Part shown: in pieces, positions 3,012-10,227 of the stretch | Numbering within the stretch: the first letter of the stretch is position 1 | Layout of the letters: every line of letters starts with the position of its first letter | Source: Escherichia phage vb_EcoM-VR5 | Reading direction: 5' to 3' (one strand) | DNA: 64,000 bases | Sequence record: NC_028881.1 | Notes under the pieces: model-generated | What the model saw: the letters and a program-made list of their open reading frames with translations, nothing else | Told to the model about the DNA's origin: nothing | Database searches by the model: none | Translations under genes and position numbers: made by a program

Positions 3012-4829
3012 TTACGACATCCAAGCCTTACGAAGCTGTGGGTCGTTTCCAAGGAGCATTTCGAACTGGTCTTTCCAATCTTCAGGTAATTGGACTACAT
3101 CAAATTTAGGGTCTTGAATCATTCGGCGGTATTCAGCTTTCTCAAGAGAACCGAGACCTTTGATATAACGAATAGAATGTTTAGGCAACTTATCCTTAGC
3201 TTCATTATAAGACGGAACATCATAGAACCATTCCTGTTCTTTACCAACCTGCGCAATAATTACCGGAGTTTTACAGAAACGAATTCGTCCCTGTTCGAAC
3301 AATTCAGGCCATTGGCTAAAGAAGGCTAATAACGAAGGATAAATCGAACCAGTACCATCCACATCAGCGTCAGTCATGATAGCGATATTATGATAGTTGG
3401 TTTTATTTGCAGGTTCGCCAATAATTAATCCTGTGATTGCACAGATATCAAATAGTTCCTTGTTCTTCATGATATCAGCAGCAGTCATACCCCAGGTATT
3501 CATAACCTTACCGCGTAATGGATAACCACCTTGGAGGTCTTTATTACGAACTTCAATGAAAGGACCCATTGCAGAATCACCTTCGGTTAAGAACAGAGTC
3601 GTATCAGCATCTTTGCCGTACATATTGGCTTTAATATGCTTATGGACCTTGGCTTTAGAAGCTTTCTTAGCAGCTTTAGTTTCGGCTGCCTTTTCAGCTG
3701 CTAATTTACGTGCTAAAGCGGCTTCGATAATAGGCATAATCAACCCATCAACTTTAAGAATAGCTTGAGCAATTTTCTTAGCATCAATTTGGATATGATT
3801 ACGAATCTCGCCAAATGGAGAGGTCAAACGTTCTTTAGTCTGGGAATCAAAACGCATATTGCTCATATCACGAATGAACATAACCATAGTAAGGCATTCT
3901 TTAACACGGGCCTTGGTTACTTCGATTCCACGATATTTCTTTTTAATACCTGGCAGAAGGTGCTCACAAATATCATCGAATACACATTCAACATGGTGGC
4001 CGCCATTCTTAGTATGGATATTGTTTACATACGTCAGTTGACGGAACCCGTCCGGAGAAGGAGTAAATGCCATCGAAACGTTATCAGTTTCTTGGATTAC
4101 AAAGTCTTCACCAAATTGCTTAGCATACTTTTTAAAGTTACCATCTACTTTTTTACCGTTAAAAGTAAATTGGATATCCGGATAAATTACGGCCAGTGTT
4201 TGAAGTCGGTCTAATGTAATATCCAGATAAATTTGTGACAGACTATTTTCTTCAAAATGATTAAAGTCTGGGGTGAATACAACCGAAGTACCTTTACCTT
4301 TAGATTTCTTGGTAGACCAACCTTTGTTTTCCATTCCATTGGAACAGTTAACTGTAATCTCATTCTCGCCATCAGAGGTGATGCCTGTGAACAAAACAGA
4401 GAAGATATTAGTTAAACTACTACCGACACCATTCATGCCGCCTGTCTTACGCTCTGCGTCATCTCCAAAGTTACCACCAGCCTTTGGAATAGTCCACGCA
4501 GCTACAGGGCCCGGAATCTGTTCACCGTTTTGATCGGTAACCATTGCTTGAGGAATACCACGGCCATTATCAGAAACTGAAACCTGGTTATTCTTAATTT
4601 GGACATCAATTTTATTTGCGAATTTAAAGCTTGTACGAATAGCTTCATCCACAGAGTTATCGATGATTTCGTCAATCAGTTTTACCAGCCCAGGAACATA
4701 GTTGACCTGAGTAAAATTACCGAACAGAAAACGTCCGTGAGCTTCATTAGCACTTGAACCGATATACATCCCACTACGTTTTTTGATATGTTCAATGTCG
4801 GACAGTACTTTAATTTCATTCTTAATCAT
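3012..4829 (-). CDS. 39: DNA topoisomerase II large subunit (GyrB-like; fused gene 39+60 form)
   Basis: 605-aa ORF; GHKL ATPase and TOPRIM-type motifs; RBS GAGGAAA; length fits fused 39/60 as in phages lacking the gene 60 bypass. Confidence 0.9.
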   Translation of the reverse strand: MIKNEIKVLSDIEHIKKRSGMYIGSSANEAHGRFLFGNFTQVNYVPGLVKLIDEIIDNSVDEAIRTSFKFANKIDVQIKNNQVSVSDNGRGIPQAMVTDQNGEQIPGPVAAWTIPKAGGNFGDDAERKTGGMNGVGSSLTNIFSVLFTGITSDGENEITVNCSNGMENKGWSTKKSKGKGTSVVFTPDFNHFEENSLSQIYLDITLDRLQTLAVIYPDIQFTFNGKKVDGNFKKYAKQFGEDFVIQETDNVSMAFTPSPDGFRQLTYVNNIHTKNGGHHVECVFDDICEHLLPGIKKKYRGIEVTKARVKECLTMVMFIRDMSNMRFDSQTKERLTSPFGEIRNHIQIDAKKIAQAILKVDGLIMPIIEAALARKLAAEKAAETKAAKKASKAKVHKHIKANMYGKDADTTLFLTEGDSAMGPFIEVRNKDLQGGYPLRGKVMNTWGMTAADIMKNKELFDICAITGLIIGEPANKTNYHNIAIMTDADVDGTGSIYPSLLAFFSQWPELFEQGRIRFCKTPVIIAQVGKEQEWFYDVPSYNEAKDKLPKHSIRYIKGLGSLEKAEYRRMIQDPKFDVVQLPEDWKDQFEMLLGNDPQLRKAWMS

Positions 4830-5335: not shown

Positions 5336-5731
5336 TTATTCCTTAAAGTGTGCTTTCAACATCTGGAAAACTGACCAGGCTTCTTCATTATTACTAATGG
5401 TGATTTTAGTCAATGGGAATGCAGTGATTTCTGGAGCTTCAGTTTCTTCATCGTCAGGTACACCATCTTCAGCCCATTCTTCATCACAGTCAACTTCGAC
5501 CATTTCGGTAAAGAATTTACGCTCAGTGGGATATAAAATCATGTCTTTATTATCGCCATAAGCTAGGTCTACGTTAGTCACATTACCTGCTGTGATAGTC
5601 CTTGGACAAAAACCTTCAGCTTCAATAATAGCATCCGCTATACCGCTATTGTTGATAACTCTACGACGGAATTCCGCTTCAGACACCTCATCTTTAAAAT
5701 AATACCACTTACCAACTTCAAATTTAGACAT
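5336..5731 (-). CDS. hypothetical protein (131 aa; start trimmed to ATG with RBS GGAAGGAGA)
   Basis: ORF; track N-terminus overlaps upstream gene, internal ATG at 5731 has strong RBS. Confidence 0.6.
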   Translation of the reverse strand: MSKFEVGKWYYFKDEVSEAEFRRRVINNSGIADAIIEAEGFCPRTITAGNVTNVDLAYGDNKDMILYPTERKFFTEMVEVDCDEEWAEDGVPDDEETEAPEITAFPLTKITISNNEEAWSVFQMLKAHFKE

Positions 5732-5942
5732 TGTAAGTCTCCTTCCAGAAGTCTGGACCAATTGAACTGATTTCACGGAACACACCGTAAATAGGATTTT
5801 TATCATCTTGATTTTCGTACACATAAACTGAAGTCAAGTGAGAGCGAGCATCAGAGTGTTCTTTCTGTACTACAACCAAATCTGGATTGAACAGAACGTC
5901 TTCAAATTCTTCACGGGTCGAGTTCACGGTAACTTTAGCCAT
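5724..5942 (-). CDS. hypothetical protein (72 aa)
   Basis: ORF with RBS GAGGAAA; promoter motif upstream. Confidence 0.55.
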   Translation of the reverse strand: MAKVTVNSTREEFEDVLFNPDLVVVQKEHSDARSHLTSVYVYENQDDKNPIYGVFREISSIGPDFWKETYNV

Positions 5943-6022: not shown

Positions 6023-6589
6023 TTACGCACGATGAATATTAGCATACTCAACAATAAAGCTTTCAGGAACTACCTTAAAGGTTCCAGTGAATACGATGTT
6101 ATAAAGCTTAACACCTTCTTCAACCCACTGGTCGGTGATGTAGCCAGACATGCTAGTAGTTTCGTAAGTACCAAACGGTTCATCAGTGTATTCAAAAGGC
6201 TTAGGAGAAACGAAAAAGACACCAGCACCTAATTTCCATTTAAAATCAACACCAACATGAGACAGGTCAATGGTTTCAACTTCTTGAGCCACTACACCAC
6301 GAATATCATTGCTTTCGCACACATACCCATCGTGTGATTCAACTTCTTCAACCACAGGAGCGACACGTCCAGTAAATTCAGTTGATTCTAGGAATTTAGC
6401 ACGAACGTAAGCAAATTGTGTTTCTGTCTGACCATTTTTAGGAATAATACGTACTTTTACTTCAGCGTTTTCAAGTCTGACACCTTCTTTAAGTTGAATA
6501 CTAACAACTTCAACTAAACAGCCTGCGGCTTTTGAACGAGATTGTTTGGATACGCGAACGATACCGCCGATATCTGAAATAGTAATCAT
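6023..6589 (-). CDS. hypothetical protein (188 aa), C-terminal domain paralogous to next gene
   Basis: ORF; C-terminus ITDQWVEEGVKLYNIVFTGTFKVVPESF resembles C-terminus of ORF 6663-7412. Confidence 0.65.
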   Translation of the reverse strand: MITISDIGGIVRVSKQSRSKAAGCLVEVVSIQLKEGVRLENAEVKVRIIPKNGQTETQFAYVRAKFLESTEFTGRVAPVVEEVESHDGYVCESNDIRGVVAQEVETIDLSHVGVDFKWKLGAGVFFVSPKPFEYTDEPFGTYETTSMSGYITDQWVEEGVKLYNIVFTGTFKVVPESFIVEYANIHRA

Positions 6590-6620
6590 AATTTTTCTCT
6601 CTTGGTTAAAGGTTTATTCT

Positions 6621-6660
6621 CCATGAGAGCCATTATAACATGGCTCTCGATAAAGTAAAC
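6621..6660 (-). promoter_or_regulatory. early promoter (-35 GTTTAC, 17 nt, -10 TATAAT)
   Basis: consensus hexamers; gagagccat/atggctctc inverted repeat around -10. Confidence 0.55.
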
Positions 6661-6662
6661 TA

Positions 6663-7412
6663 TTAGTTCAAAACATTCACAACTGCACTACGAGGTACTA
6701 CACTAAAATCACCAGCATGGACAACATTCAGAAGCTCAACGCCATCTTCAATCCATTGGTCTGTTACCCACCCACAGATAGGATTATCAAAAGGACGACG
6801 GACGCTTACTGGCTTACACAACAAATCGGTAGGGTCTTGTTCGACTTCGACTTCACGGAAAAGGCCGAATTCAGCTTCGTAAACCAGGATTTTCTCTATT
6901 TTGTTATTGTCTAAACGACGGCCGTGGATGACGTAAGATTTAGTAAACCAGTTACTTTTTGTAAAGTCTTCAACAATAAATTCGCCTTCGCCAAAAACAT
7001 CAGTCAGAGTTTTATGACCGGAAATCAAGGCATTAGTTTTAATTTCAGGTTCAACCAGTTTGTAGGTTTTGCCGATTTCAATAGCGATAGTCATAGTTGT
7101 TTCCTTAATTTCCAGTGGTTTAACAGGGCATACATAAGTGCTTACAACATCAAAATCGATAAGCTGCTTTGGAGCTAAACGAATAAAGGCAGCCATTTCT
7201 CGTTGCGACAATCGAATAGTATGTATATCCGGAACACCACATTCTTGAACTGTTACAGATTTAATATTATCAAGCTCATCAGGTCCAATAGAAAGAATAC
7301 GGAACTCGTTGCCTTTAGTCATCTTTTTAAGGAGGTCATAAGCTTGGTTGTAGAGCTTAAGTTCAGAGTACGGGGTAACGATGTATTTGGCATTCAGATC
7401 GAAAGTATTCAT
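6663..7412 (-). CDS. hypothetical protein (249 aa), C-terminal domain paralogous to previous gene
   Basis: ORF; C-terminus VTDQWIEDGVELLNVVHAGDFSVVPRSA. Confidence 0.65.
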   Translation of the reverse strand: MNTFDLNAKYIVTPYSELKLYNQAYDLLKKMTKGNEFRILSIGPDELDNIKSVTVQECGVPDIHTIRLSQREMAAFIRLAPKQLIDFDVVSTYVCPVKPLEIKETTMTIAIEIGKTYKLVEPEIKTNALISGHKTLTDVFGEGEFIVEDFTKSNWFTKSYVIHGRRLDNNKIEKILVYEAEFGLFREVEVEQDPTDLLCKPVSVRRPFDNPICGWVTDQWIEDGVELLNVVHAGDFSVVPRSAVVNVLN

Positions 7413-7918
7413 AATTGTCTCATTTCAATAAAATCTACGAGTTCAGCATGGGATTTGCGGAACATTACTTGGTGGTCACCAATGACAACCTCATCTTCAG
7501 GTATTTCGTAAACGGCAAGATAGAATCCTTTAGAAGATAATTCTTCTCGCTCTTCACGACTGAACCAGCGCATCATATCATACTCGCTGGCAAAAGCAAA
7601 ATGATAGAGATGAACAAACCAACTAGGTATATAGTTATCTACACCATTATAATCAGGGCGACCCCACTTAGTATTAATTGCTCTATTAGAATTCGCAACC
7701 AACAATTTATCTTGGGATGGTACCGGGATATTTTTAGTATTGCTATGGTGGTGTCTAAAATCAGGTTTATTATAACCCGCTTCTAATAACCATCCTTCAC
7801 TCCACTCGTCGAATAATCCGCTATATGGTGTTAACTGACGACTCGCCTGTCGGGTGATTGTGATACCGTTTCTGTCATCTAAAACACTGAATGATGATTC
7901 AACTCTATAAATTTTCAT
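7409..7918 (-). CDS. hypothetical protein (169 aa)
   Basis: ORF with promoter motif and RBS GAGGAGAA upstream; ATGA overlap with downstream gene. Confidence 0.65.
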   Translation of the reverse strand: MKIYRVESSFSVLDDRNGITITRQASRQLTPYSGLFDEWSEGWLLEAGYNKPDFRHHHSNTKNIPVPSQDKLLVANSNRAINTKWGRPDYNGVDNYIPSWFVHLYHFAFASEYDMMRWFSREEREELSSKGFYLAVYEIPEDEVVIGDHQVMFRKSHAELVDFIEMRQL

Positions 7919-7977: not shown

Positions 7978-8652
7978 TTATCGATTTTTTACACTCAAAG
8001 GGTCTGGATTCTCAGGGACATCTTCCAGGCTTAAAGCGTATCGTTGGGCGTATTTAAGCATCAAGATATCCTTGGCACAGTCATGGATAGAGTCGTGAGC
8101 TACGAATCCTTTCAATGTTCCATTAGGCAGAGGACACATGCTTAATCCACGAGTCAACGAGTACGCTTCAATAGCAGTACGGATATCACGTTGGTTCCAG
8201 AATTTAACAGGTTCTAACTTAGAGGTATCGATTTCATTCTCAGGAACACCTTCAGAACGGTACGCATCACGGATTAGGTCGACCAAGATTGGAAAATCAA
8301 AGGACATTCCACGACACCACATCTGGGATTTCCATTGGTCTACTTCGTTTTTGCGACAGTATTCTAAGAAGTTACCAAGCCCAATAGAAGTAGACACATC
8401 AATTTCAGACGGAGCCAGGTTTTTACGTGCTTCAGGCCCTTGCTCTTTCCACCATTGGAGGGTGCTTTTAGAGAACAGACGTTTATCGCGCTGAGAAGCA
8501 AGGTCAAATTTAATACGAAGGCCGCGTTGAGTAAGCTCTTCAAATGATTCTACTACTTCTGGATTAGGGTCATAAGCAATTACGGCAAGGTCAATAACAG
8601 CTGCATTCTGGGTAGTAGCAAAGGTTTCAAAGTCAATAATTATATCTTTCAT
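7978..8652 (-). CDS. dexA: exonuclease A (DEDDh 3'-5' exonuclease)
   Basis: 224-aa ORF; N-terminal IIDFET motif; size and position as T4 dexA. Confidence 0.8.
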   Translation of the reverse strand: MKDIIIDFETFATTQNAAVIDLAVIAYDPNPEVVESFEELTQRGLRIKFDLASQRDKRLFSKSTLQWWKEQGPEARKNLAPSEIDVSTSIGLGNFLEYCRKNEVDQWKSQMWCRGMSFDFPILVDLIRDAYRSEGVPENEIDTSKLEPVKFWNQRDIRTAIEAYSLTRGLSMCPLPNGTLKGFVAHDSIHDCAKDILMLKYAQRYALSLEDVPENPDPLSVKNR

Positions 8653-8895: not shown

Positions 8896-10227
8896 TCAAA
8901 CGTAATAGGCATCAGTACGAGCACGAGTAATACTAACATAAGCTAGCTGTGAAGCTAAATTAACATCAGCCATGTGCATACATGGGGTATAGATGAAACT
9001 ATTCTGGACTGTGAGCCCCTGTGATTTATGAACAGTGCTCACTGGAAGAGCTCGAACCTTAGTAAACATTCTCTTAGCTTTCCAGAAATCAGCCCACTTA
9101 GGTTTCTTACCAGTTCCACGCATAGCCTTATACTCAGTAGCAACCTTAGCCAAGAAATAATGGAACTTCTCAACTGAAGCCTCATCGATAACCTTGATAT
9201 GCTCTACGTAATACTCGTCGTCTTCATCAATAGATTCAACCTGGAGGTCCCAGTAATTAACCATTTGGCGAGTGCCTACGTCCTTAGCAGACAAGAACAG
9301 TGAGGTGTGGTTCACATCCAGAATACGAACCATTTGACCGTTATTAAAAATGGTTTCAGAGAATTTCTTACCATCGTATTCAAGTTCCTTCATAAAAGGC
9401 TCTTGCATCACAAGGATTTCACCCTTGATATAAGGTACATCAGTTTCGTAAAGCTTTTTACGGATAATGCTATTAAGCTTTTCAACCGATTTATTTGTAT
9501 AAGCAAACATCCTGTTCTCAAACAGTGCATCTGCATCTTTTACGATGGAAAAATAATTCATCATAAAATCTTTTAAAGCGGTTTGGGATTTAAAACCATG
9601 AACACCATGACCTTCGAATACACAATCTCTAAACCAGCCGCCATTACGGATTTCGGTAGCAACCTCAATGATAGGAGCATTACTACGCATCACTTCAGTC
9701 AGATGTAGCTGTTTAATTTTAGGATGTGTAAAGAATGGAGACAACTGAGGGCTTCCATCACTTCCGGGTTCTACAGGTTGTAACTGTGCTCGGTCACCAA
9801 TTCCTAGTACAGTGCACCATGGTGGAACCGAAGCTTCAATAATCTTAAACAACTTACCGTCAATCATTGAGCCTTCATCAACAACTAGAACATTACATTT
9901 GCTCAAGTCAGGAGCTTCGCGTTGTTCGAAGATATCCTGGTCTTCATATGTAGTCGGGTTAATCTTTAAGATTCGATGAATTGTCGATGCTTCTTGGCCT
10001 GCGAGTTTAGACAATACCTTTTTGGCTGCATGTGTAGGCGCAGTCAAAATAACTCCGAGTTCGCCATTCTTGACCAGGTGGTCAAGAATAAATTTAGTAA
10101 GGGTTGTTTTACCTGTACCGGCAGGACCATTCAATGTAATCCATTCACCCTTACGTCGTTTAATAGCTTCAATGATTTCTTTAAAGGCCGTCCTCTGGCC
10201 AATGTTCAAGTCTTCAAATGTAATCAT
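8896..10227 (-). CDS. dda: Dda DNA helicase (SF1B)
   Basis: 443-aa ORF; Walker A GPAGTGKTT; N-terminus matches my recollection of T4 Dda. Confidence 0.9.
   Translation of the reverse strand: MITFEDLNIGQRTAFKEIIEAIKRRKGEWITLNGPAGTGKTTLTKFILDHLVKNGELGVILTAPTHAAKKVLSKLAGQEASTIHRILKINPTTYEDQDIFEQREAPDLSKCNVLVVDEGSMIDGKLFKIIEASVPPWCTVLGIGDRAQLQPVEPGSDGSPQLSPFFTHPKIKQLHLTEVMRSNAPIIEVATEIRNGGWFRDCVFEGHGVHGFKSQTALKDFMMNYFSIVKDADALFENRMFAYTNKSVEKLNSIIRKKLYETDVPYIKGEILVMQEPFMKELEYDGKKFSETIFNNGQMVRILDVNHTSLFLSAKDVGTRQMVNYWDLQVESIDEDDEYYVEHIKVIDEASVEKFHYFLAKVATEYKAMRGTGKKPKWADFWKAKRMFTKVRALPVSTVHKSQGLTVQNSFIYTPCMHMADVNLASQLAYVSITRARTDAYYV

What the first reader, a model, noticed from the sequence alone, without database searches (positions are those of the whole stretch)
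6023..7412. Tandem genes sharing a paralogous C-terminal domain
The 188-aa and 249-aa proteins end with clearly related segments of about 40 residues (ITDQWVEEGVKLYNIVFTGTFKVVPESF versus VTDQWIEDGVELLNVVHAGDFSVVPRSA) while their N-terminal parts differ, suggesting duplication followed by N-terminal divergence.
Basis: seen in the sequence. Interest (0 to 1): 0.4.

Follow-up and report, generated by a model that had tools for sequence, protein, structure and literature searches.

The report
T4 motB and motB.1 paralogues

Summary
ORF 6023-6589 (-, 188 aa) and ORF 6663-7412 (-, 249 aa) share a roughly 40-residue C-terminal segment: BLASTP 19/38 identical, E=2e-11; Smith-Waterman z=16.7 against shuffles; HHalign 98%, E=1e-13. 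Their N-termini show no detectable similarity.

The window is a T4-like Dhakavirus coliphage, and the genes are motB (Pfam PF17613, 54% identical to T4 MotB) and motB.1 (PHROG 2333). Son et al. 2021 (PMC7827196) already reported that MotB and MotB.1 share a C-terminal domain (CTD), have different N-terminal domains (NTDs), and probably arose by duplication.

This work adds several points:
- The shared part forms the last four strands of a small, acidic five-strand beta domain with no conserved basic residue.
- MotB has a basic KOW-like NTD. MotB.1 has an LSm-like, GoF-related domain plus a rare 82-aa N-terminal extension.
- Klebsiella T4-like phages carry a single gene with a KOW NTD and a MotB.1-type CTD. 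This points to duplication followed by replacement of the N-terminal module, not sequence divergence.
- The 119-aa MotB.1 in the T4 reference genome results from one extra G that other T4 sequences lack.

The function of the shared module remains inferred. Verdict: already known, low interest.

The parts
6023..6589 (-). motB gene (188 aa plus stop), homologue of T4 MotB
   Evidence: Pfam PF17613 motB, E=1.3e-59, 201 bits against a cutoff of 25. PHROG 1671, E=4e-70. 54% identical to T4 MotB over the full length, E=2e-65. Synteny matches IME08 and T4.
6380..6589 (-). MotB N-terminal domain (residues 1-70): basic, five-strand, KOW-like small barrel
6254..6379 (-). MotB linker (residues 71-112), predicted disordered and 24 aa longer than in T4
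   Evidence: pLDDT is below 50 for residues 71-112. There is a 24-residue gap against T4 MotB. An 18-nt direct repeat lies inside it with 63-nt spacing (D3).
6026..6253 (-). MotB C-terminal domain (residues 113-188), five beta strands
   Evidence: AF2 places strands at 123-136, 140-157, 160-167, 170-175 and 179-182, with pLDDT 77-91. It matches Pfam motB profile positions 87-159.
6038..6157 (-). Shared module in MotB (residues 145-184)
   Evidence: HHalign columns 145-184, E=1e-13. BLASTP covers 147-184.
6663..7412 (-). motB.1 gene (249 aa plus stop); its start overlaps the motB.2 stop (ATGA)
   Evidence: PHROG 2333, E=8e-80. 86% identical to IME08 'MotB.1' over residues 83-249. 58% identical to T4 MotB.1 over 52 aa. 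Sequence read.
7167..7412 (-). MotB.1 N-terminal extension (residues 1-82), an orphan domain found in few phages
   Evidence: Present in 12 protein clusters and 8 phage records. No Pfam, PHROG or HHalign match. AF2 gives a low-confidence helix-strand-strand-strand-helix pattern. Against NC-G, 9 codons differ synonymously and 4 non-synonymously.
7092..7166 (-). Conserved linker (residues 83-107, QLIDFDVVSTYVCPVKPLEIKE..M), ending in invariant Met107 preceded by AAGGA
   Evidence: About 95% identical to the 180-aa class of MotB.1. M107 is invariant in 53 sequences. A similar motif lies between the KOW domain and the CTD in P0224, P0225 and P0231. DNA read.
6834..7091 (-). MotB.1 LSm-like small barrel (residues 108-193), related to GoF
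   Evidence: AF2 pLDDT is about 78-87. PHROG 622 (the GoF family) matches at E=2.4e-7 and 8e-6. HHalign against the GoF alignment gives E=0.017 in full register. The LSm-like fold was published for T4 MotB.1 (PMC12152347).
6666..6833 (-). MotB.1 C-terminal domain (residues 194-249)
   Evidence: AF2 places strands at 201-204, 212-222, 225-232, 235-240 and 244-247, with pLDDT 69-85.
6666..6785 (-). Shared module in MotB.1 (residues 210-249)
   Evidence: HHalign columns 210-249. Pfam motB matches residues 210-244, E=3e-8.
6632..6659 (-). Sigma-70 / T4-early-type promoter-like site between motB.1 and motB (TTTACT, 16 nt, TG-TATAAT)
   Evidence: Consensus scan, 10 of 12 matches with an extended -10. 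It overlaps a stable hairpin at 6625-6648, dG -21.5 kcal/mol, z=-6.7. This is a consensus match only.
5336..5731 (-). goF (context): LSm-like relative of the MotB.1 middle domain, two genes downstream
   Evidence: PHROG 622, E=2.8e-26, with the match starting at residue 32 of the longest ORF. IME08 annotation.

Best explanation
The two ORFs are motB and motB.1. They are adjacent early genes in the non-essential dda-to-gene-39 block of a T4-like (Dhakavirus) coliphage.

What is shown: they are homologous only in their last ~40 codons. These encode the last four strands of a small five-strand beta domain. The strands are joined by 2-3-residue turns, that is, a meander. The remaining parts are different modules.
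- MotB: basic KOW-like barrel, disordered linker, then the CTD.
- MotB.1 of this phage: an orphan 82-aa extension, a conserved linker, an LSm-like barrel related to GoF, then the CTD.

Most likely history (inferred): an ancestral single gene with the layout KOW-linker-CTD was duplicated in tandem. This layout survives as the only family member in Klebsiella T4-like phages. One copy kept the KOW domain and became motB. The other kept the ancestral-looking CTD and linker but acquired LSm-like and other N-terminal modules, and became motB.1.

Function: T4 MotB is published as an abundant, sequence-non-specific DNA-binding protein. It alters H-NS-DNA complexes and raises burst size about two-fold. 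From charge and conservation I infer that DNA binding lies in the basic KOW-like NTD. I also infer that the shared acidic module, which has no conserved Lys or Arg, is a protein-protein module used by both paralogues, for self- or hetero-association or for docking on a common partner. I give this last step about 35% probability. The function of MotB.1 itself is unknown, and deleting it in T4 gives no phenotype.
For: Identity: Pfam, PHROG and BLASTP matches to T4 and IME08, synteny, and best DNA matches to Dhakavirus phages at about 92%.

Homology of the module.

Charge: the MotB NTD averages +4.9. The MotB CTD averages -2.3, the MotB.1 CTD -3.2 and the MotB.1 LSm-like domain -4.9. The invariant module columns are D, W, E, G, L, N, V, V, with no K or R.

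History:
- A profile search of 1.84 billion representative proteins finds about 26 single-stretch clusters, with the module always at the C-terminus.
- P0220, P0224 and P0225 combine a KOW NTD with a MotB.1-type CTD: 104, 91 and 81 bits against 58, 59 and 53 for the MotB-type profile.
- They are the only motB-family gene between dexA/motB.2 and cef.
- P0232 and P0248 pass Pfam KOW.
- The LSm-like domain matches the GoF family.
- The UPEC01/VR25 class duplicates the LSm-like domain.
- Nucleotide identity of 58%, with 14/38 at third positions, shows the duplication is old.

Published function: PMC6070864, PMC7827196, PMC12152347.
Against: - No experiment was done here, and the role of the module is inferred from charge and conservation only.
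- AF2 confidence is moderate: mean pLDDT 65 and 72.
- A few MotB-type modules are neutral or slightly positive, up to +3.
- Genes with KOW plus a MotB.1-type CTD could be recombinants rather than ancestral.
- Son et al. could not detect a DNA-independent MotB/H-NS interaction.
Confidence: 0.8

Rival explanations
1. The shared C-terminal region is an OB-fold nucleic-acid-binding domain, as proposed by Son et al. 2021. On this view both paralogues bind DNA or RNA through it, and the N-termini modulate specificity.
Confidence: 0.2
2. A whole-gene tandem duplication was followed by ordinary sequence divergence of the N-terminal halves. On this view both N-termini descend from the same ancestral domain.
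For: Both N-terminal domains are small five-strand beta barrels of the SH3-like superfold, so very remote common ancestry cannot be excluded. The genes are in tandem.
Against: HHalign finds no signal between the KOW-type and LSm-type NTD profiles, E=0.44-0.91. The LSm-like domain instead matches the GoF family profile. Architectures in the family mix modules freely: KOW plus MotB.1-type CTD, LSm plus LSm, linker before or after the LSm-like domain.
Confidence: 0.1
3. The similarity reflects recent recombination or gene conversion between the 3' ends of neighbouring genes rather than an old duplication.
For: The genes are adjacent, and short DNA repeats link the two modules (D1 and D2).
Against: The module is only 58% identical at the DNA level, with 14/38 identical third positions. 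MotB-type and MotB.1-type signatures (K/Y/F/E against E/L/H/R) are fixed across about 70 distinct sequences.
Confidence: 0.03

Closest known systems
Bacteriophage T4 MotB (Pfam PF17613; Patterson-West et al. 2018, PMC6070864; Son et al. 2021, PMC7827196)
   Same: The 188-aa protein is 54% identical over its full length. It has the same two-domain layout and the same position between motB.1 and cef.
   Different: It has a 24-residue longer, predicted-disordered linker. No functional data exist for this phage.
Bacteriophage T4 MotB.1 (PHROG 2333; Son et al. 2021; Kim et al. 2025, PMC12152347)
   Same: Same gene position, an LSm-like domain followed by the MotB-type C-terminal module, and 58% identity over the conserved 52 aa.
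   Different: This protein is 249 aa, against 143 aa for re-sequenced T4 and 119 aa for the T4 reference. It carries an extra 82-aa orphan N-terminal extension and a 25-aa conserved linker. The extension occurs in only 8 phage records.
GoF / Frd.2 family of Tevenvirinae LSm-like fold proteins (Kim et al. 2025)
   Same: The middle domain of MotB.1 (residues 108-193) matches the GoF family profile, PHROG 622. goF lies two genes downstream.
   Different: GoF has no MotB-type C-terminal module. The local 'EEWAEDGV' resemblance is not conserved in the GoF family.
KOW / SH3-like small beta barrels (NusG, Spt5, eS4, Tudor, chromo, EF-P domain I)
   Different: The window's own MotB does not reach the Pfam KOW threshold. 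This is fold-level resemblance only, with 10-23% identity.
Phage antagonists of H-NS (T7 gp5.5, T4 Arn)
   Same: They share a functional theme: phage early proteins that alter H-NS silencing. The module's acidic character is reminiscent of Arn.
   Different: There is no sequence or demonstrated structural relationship. The MotB-H-NS association has been seen only in the presence of DNA.

Membership tests
MotB (Pfam PF17613 / PHROG 1671) | Full-length match to the family profile above the curated threshold | tested here: met
   201 bits against a cutoff of 25, E=1.3e-59. PHROG 1671, E=3.8e-70. 54% identical to T4 MotB.
MotB (Pfam PF17613 / PHROG 1671) | Genomic position in the T4-type early block, between motB.1 and cef, downstream of dexA and dda | tested here: met
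   The gene order gp39, 39.1, 39.2, goF, cef, motB, motB.1, motB.2, dexA, dexA.1, dda matches IME08 and T4.
MotB (Pfam PF17613 / PHROG 1671) | N-terminal KOW-like barrel | tested here: inconclusive
MotB (Pfam PF17613 / PHROG 1671) | Non-specific DNA binding, H-NS/StpA co-purification, toxicity in E. coli | not testable with these tools
   Published for T4 only.
MotB.1 (PHROG 2333) | Match to the family profile and to annotated MotB.1 proteins | tested here: met
   PHROG 2333, E=8.2e-80. 86% identical to IME08 MotB.1. E=3e-22 to T4 MotB.1.
MotB.1 (PHROG 2333) | C-terminal module shared with MotB | tested here: met
MotB.1 (PHROG 2333) | LSm-like beta barrel preceding the CTD | tested here: met
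OB-fold nucleic-acid-binding domain (proposed for the CTD by Son et al. 2021) | Five-strand Greek-key barrel, usually with a helix between strands 3 and 4, and a basic or aromatic ligand-binding face | tested here: not met
   AF2 gives consecutive hairpins with 2-3-residue turns and no helix. The module is acidic with no conserved K or R. Caveat: model coordinates could not be inspected and no experimental structure exists.
Sm/LSm (Hfq-like) proteins | Sm1/Sm2 sequence motifs and ring oligomerisation | not tested
   Only fold-level resemblance is available. Kim et al. 2025 obtained no confident multimer models.

The most novel reading that the evidence does not exclude
The shared acidic C-terminal module is a dedicated association module. 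Through it the DNA-binding KOW protein MotB and the LSm-like (possibly RNA-binding) MotB.1 would form homo- or hetero-oligomers, or dock on one common host target. The tandem pair would then act as one system acting on nucleoid-associated proteins, and the variable N-terminal modules of MotB.1 (orphan extension, single or double LSm-like domain) would tune its cargo.
Probability: 0.15. Interest if true: 0.45.

Novelty: already known. Interest (0 to 1): 0.2.

Why it matters
The finding itself repeats a published result. Son et al. 2021 showed that MotB and MotB.1 share a CTD, have different NTDs and probably arose by duplication.

The additions made here are modest:
- They delimit the shared module to about 40 residues and show that it is acidic, lacks conserved basic residues and is always C-terminal. 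This argues that MotB binds DNA through its KOW-like NTD, and so questions the published OB-fold DNA-binding reading of the CTD.
- They suggest an order of events: a single KOW-CTD gene, then duplication, then N-terminal module replacement.
- The T4 reference motB.1 appears to carry a 1-nt error that removes the module. The 2025 work on MotB.1 cites NC_000866.4 coordinates and a 13.8-kDa size, which fits the 119-aa form. This matters for anyone doing experiments on that protein.

Tried and rejected
1. GoF as a third carrier of the module. BLASTP of GoF against MotB.1 gave a weak alignment over 'EEWAEDGV...FPLTKIT' (E=0.07), and a 19-nt repeat links goF, motB and motB.1 (D2). In a 40-sequence GoF alignment the motif lies in a variable acidic linker and is not conserved. 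HHalign of GoF against the CTD gives E=0.26-0.54. Rejected as chance.

2. The 82-aa N-terminal extension of MotB.1 as a second LSm-like or degenerate KOW domain. AF2 gives a similar helix-strand-strand-strand-helix order, but at pLDDT of about 50. HHalign against the LSm-like profile gives E=0.16-0.38, against the narrow KOW profile E=0.009, and against the broad KOW profile E=0.73. BLASTP of the two halves finds nothing, and there is no Pfam or PHROG hit. Left as an orphan domain.

3. Sequence matches of either protein or of the module profile to PDB chains gave only noise.

4. Multi-stretch hits of the module profile to long repeat proteins (P0235, P0237-P0241 and others). P0237, the one read in full, carries repeated 'CGY[IV]TD..T..PI' motifs and was judged unrelated. 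P0241 is low-complexity sequence.

5. Additional copies of the module elsewhere in the window: none found.

6. Recent gene conversion between the two genes: rejected on nucleotide identity.

Full report
**Where we are.** All genes around the finding lie on the minus strand. Reading the plus strand from left to right, profile and annotation matches give this order:
- gp39 topoisomerase (3012-4829), 39.1 and 39.2
- goF (5336-5731)
- cef (5724-5942)
- a 188-aa ORF (6023-6589)
- a 249-aa ORF (6663-7412)
- motB.2 (7409-7918)
- dexA (7978-8652), dexA.1 and dda (8896-10227)

The DNA is about 92% identical to the Dhakavirus phages NC-G and vB_EcoM_ESCO10, and about 85% identical to IME08 and its relatives. 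The window is therefore a T4-like coliphage (Straboviridae, Tevenvirinae, Dhakavirus).

- BLASTP of the two proteins gives a single ungapped alignment, 19/38 identical, E=2e-11.
- The Smith-Waterman score is 113, against 31.9 +/- 4.9 for 2000 shuffles (z=16.7).
- HHalign of a 60-sequence alignment of the first family against a 53-sequence alignment of the second gives 98% probability and E=1e-13 over exactly 40 columns: residues 145-184 of the 188-aa protein against 210-249 of the 249-aa protein.
- An HMM of the module finds only these two ORFs in the six-frame translation of the window.
- The N-terminal parts give no profile-profile signal.

**What the genes are.**
- The 188-aa protein is MotB: Pfam PF17613 at 201 bits, and 54% identity to T4 MotB with one 24-residue insertion.
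- The 249-aa protein is MotB.1: PHROG 2333 at E=8e-80, 86% identity to the IME08 protein annotated 'similar to T4 MotB.1', and E=3e-22 to T4 MotB.1.

**It is already published.** Son et al. [quoted passage not shown] Kim et al. 2025 (PMC12152347) describe the MotB.1 NTD as an LSm-like barrel shared with GoF and Frd.2. T4 MotB is a toxic, abundant, non-specific DNA-binding early protein. [quoted passage not shown] Deleting T4 motB.1 has no measured phenotype.

**Anatomy of MotB from structure prediction.** The AF2 model has mean pLDDT 72. It shows three parts:
- A five-strand N-terminal barrel (residues 1-70).
- A disordered linker (71-112).
- A confident C-terminal domain (113-188, pLDDT 77-91), with strands at 123-136, 140-157, 160-167, 170-175 and 179-182.

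**Anatomy of MotB.1 from structure prediction.** The AF2 model has mean pLDDT 65. It shows three folded parts:
- A low-confidence N-terminal extension (1-82).
- A confident LSm-like domain (about 111-190).
- A C-terminal domain with strands at 201-204, 212-222, 225-232, 235-240 and 244-247.

**The shared module in structural terms.**
- The last four strands of the two C-terminal domains coincide at a constant offset of 65 residues, which is exactly the sequence alignment. The shared 40 residues are therefore strands 2-5 of a five-strand domain, joined by 2-3-residue turns.
- In the hairpin formed by strands 3 and 4, the facing positions carry K161/E176 in the MotB type and E226/R241 in the MotB.1 type (alignment A5). 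This is a charge-swapped pair consistent with the model.
- The tool does not report which query residues matched, so I cannot assign these hits to a particular domain.
- The strand order and the absence of a helix argue against the OB-fold predicted by HHpred in the 2021 paper. Only an experimental structure can settle this.

**Charge and conservation.**
- Across the families, the MotB NTD is basic: mean +4.9, pI 9.9.
- The MotB CTD averages -2.3, the MotB.1 CTD -3.2, and the MotB.1 LSm-like domain -4.9.
- The invariant columns of the module in 27 diverse sequences are D, W, E, G, L, N, V, V, with no Lys or Arg.
- I infer that the DNA binding of MotB resides in the KOW-like NTD, and that the shared module is more likely a protein-contact module than a nucleic-acid-binding surface. 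This is inference, not demonstration.

**Distribution and architectures.** A profile of the module was searched against 1.84 billion representative proteins. It found 39 hits at E<=0.001. About 26 of these are single-stretch hits in proteins of 43-251 aa, and the module always lies at, or within 14 residues of, the C-terminus. The remaining hits are multi-stretch matches to long repeat proteins, judged unrelated. The module occurs in these contexts:
- KOW plus a MotB-type CTD (classical MotB).
- LSm-like domain plus a MotB.1-type CTD (T4, 143 aa).
- Leader, linker, LSm-like domain, then CTD (about 180 aa; the common class, including IME08).
- 82-aa extension, linker, LSm-like domain, then CTD (this window).
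- Linker, two LSm-like domains, then CTD (UPEC01 and VR25). The second LSm-like domain is a diverged duplicate: HHalign 96%, E=3e-9.
- LSm-like domain, linker, then CTD (P0223).
- KOW, with or without the linker, plus a MotB.1-type CTD (P0220, P0224, P0225 and others).

Remote members P0232 and P0248 pass Pfam's own KOW threshold.

**Single-copy relatives.** The KOW plus MotB.1-type genes are the only family member between dexA/motB.2 and cef in two settings: Klebsiella phage R3_1 and the contigs that carry the same 126-aa protein (P0220), and a metagenomic T4-like contig. A simple deletion between tandem motB.1 and motB would give an LSm-like domain plus a MotB-type CTD, not this combination. 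The most economical history is therefore:
1. An ancestral KOW-linker-CTD gene.
2. A tandem duplication.
3. Retention of KOW in motB.
4. Replacement or accretion of N-terminal modules in motB.1, with the LSm-like domain drawn from the GoF/Frd.2 family.

The duplication is old: 58% nucleotide identity in the module and 14/38 identical third positions.

**What is particular to this window.**
- Its MotB.1 carries an 82-residue N-terminal extension, found in only 12 protein clusters and 8 phage records: NC-G, ESCO10, MX01, IME341, IME540 and ABTNLsp5.
- The extension has no detectable relatives.
- It behaves as coding sequence: 9 synonymous against 4 non-synonymous codon differences from NC-G.
- Its MotB linker is 24 residues longer than in T4.

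**Side finding on T4 itself.** The T4 reference (NC_000866.4 / AF158101.6) annotates a 119-aa MotB.1 ending '...GWVTDQWIGRWR'.
- The reference carries one extra G relative to this window and to IME08.
- The next reading frame continues 'LEDGVELLNVVHAGEYSVVPRSAVVAILN*', which is the missing module.
- Thirteen other records match the 551-nt reference segment over 550 nt: independently sequenced T4 genomes (KJ477684-6, MT984581, OL964735, OZ209023, HM137666 and others) plus RB55 and RB59.
- MT984581 encodes a 143-aa MotB.1 with the complete module.
- The reference form is therefore most likely a sequencing error or a stock-specific frameshift.
- Kim et al. 2025 cite NC_000866.4 coordinates and a 13.8-kDa MotB.1, which fits the 119-aa form. 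They do not mention the frameshift.

**Verdict.** The finding is already in the literature. The mechanism of the shared module remains open. My preferred reading, a common protein-association module, has about one chance in three. The published alternative, an OB-fold DNA-binding domain, has about one in five.

Noticed in passing
L003:4190-4335 (T4 NC_000866.4, about 7190-7335); compare window 6655-6800: The T4 reference motB.1 (119 aa) has one extra G compared with this window, IME08 and 13 other records (independently sequenced T4 genomes plus RB55 and RB59). Without it, T4 MotB.1 is 143 aa and regains the full C-terminal module. Kim et al. 2025 cite NC_000866.4 coordinates and a 13.8-kDa size, which fits the truncated form.
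   Followed up: yes
window 7167-7412 (-): The 82-aa N-terminal extension of MotB.1 is an orphan domain. It is present in only 8 of 50,697 phage records and 12 protein clusters, always at this locus. It appears to be under purifying selection. AF2 confidence for it is low.
   Followed up: partly
P0095-P0104 (e.g. Escherichia phages UPEC01, VR25), about 251 aa: A class of MotB.1 proteins carries two tandem LSm-like domains. The second is a diverged duplicate of the first (HHalign 96%, E=3e-9, about 30% identity).
   Followed up: yes
L008:2501-2881 (Klebsiella phage R3_1), L006:4001-4381, L005:730-1203: Some T4-like phages have a single motB-family gene that combines a MotB-type KOW N-terminus with a MotB.1-type C-terminal domain. 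It lies between dexA/motB.2 and cef and is a candidate for the unduplicated ancestral state.
   Followed up: yes
window 7092-7110 (-): Met107 of MotB.1 is invariant in 53 homologues. It is preceded by AAGGA with a 7-nt spacer, inside the conserved 'EIKE' codons. It corresponds to the start of T4 MotB.1 and of the 141-aa annotations (e.g. PP01). This may be an internal translation start giving a short LSm-like-plus-CTD isoform.
   Followed up: partly
window 6625-6648 (-): A 9-bp perfect stem (GAGAGCCAT/ATGGCTCTC) lies within a longer hairpin (dG -21.5 kcal/mol, z=-6.7). It sits just after the motB.1 stop and encloses the -10 element of the early-promoter-like site upstream of motB.
   Followed up: partly
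P0236 (43 aa, metagenomic): This peptide reads 'MKIYRVESSFSILDY' (the start of MotB.2) fused directly to 'EDGVELLNVVHAGDFSVVPRSAVVAILN' (the end of MotB.1). It looks like a natural deletion that removed most of motB.2 and motB.1.
   Followed up: no
window 5336-5824 (-): The longest goF ORF (162 aa) overlaps cef by about 100 nt. The PHROG 622 match begins at residue 32, so the real start is probably the ATG at 5731 (131 aa), immediately after the cef stop. IME08 annotates an equally long, overlapping goF.
   Followed up: partly
window 6275-6355 (-), MotB linker: An 18-nt direct repeat with 63-nt spacing encodes 'VVEEVE' and 'VAQEVE'. This suggests that the longer MotB linker of this phage grew by an internal 21-codon duplication.
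   Followed up: no
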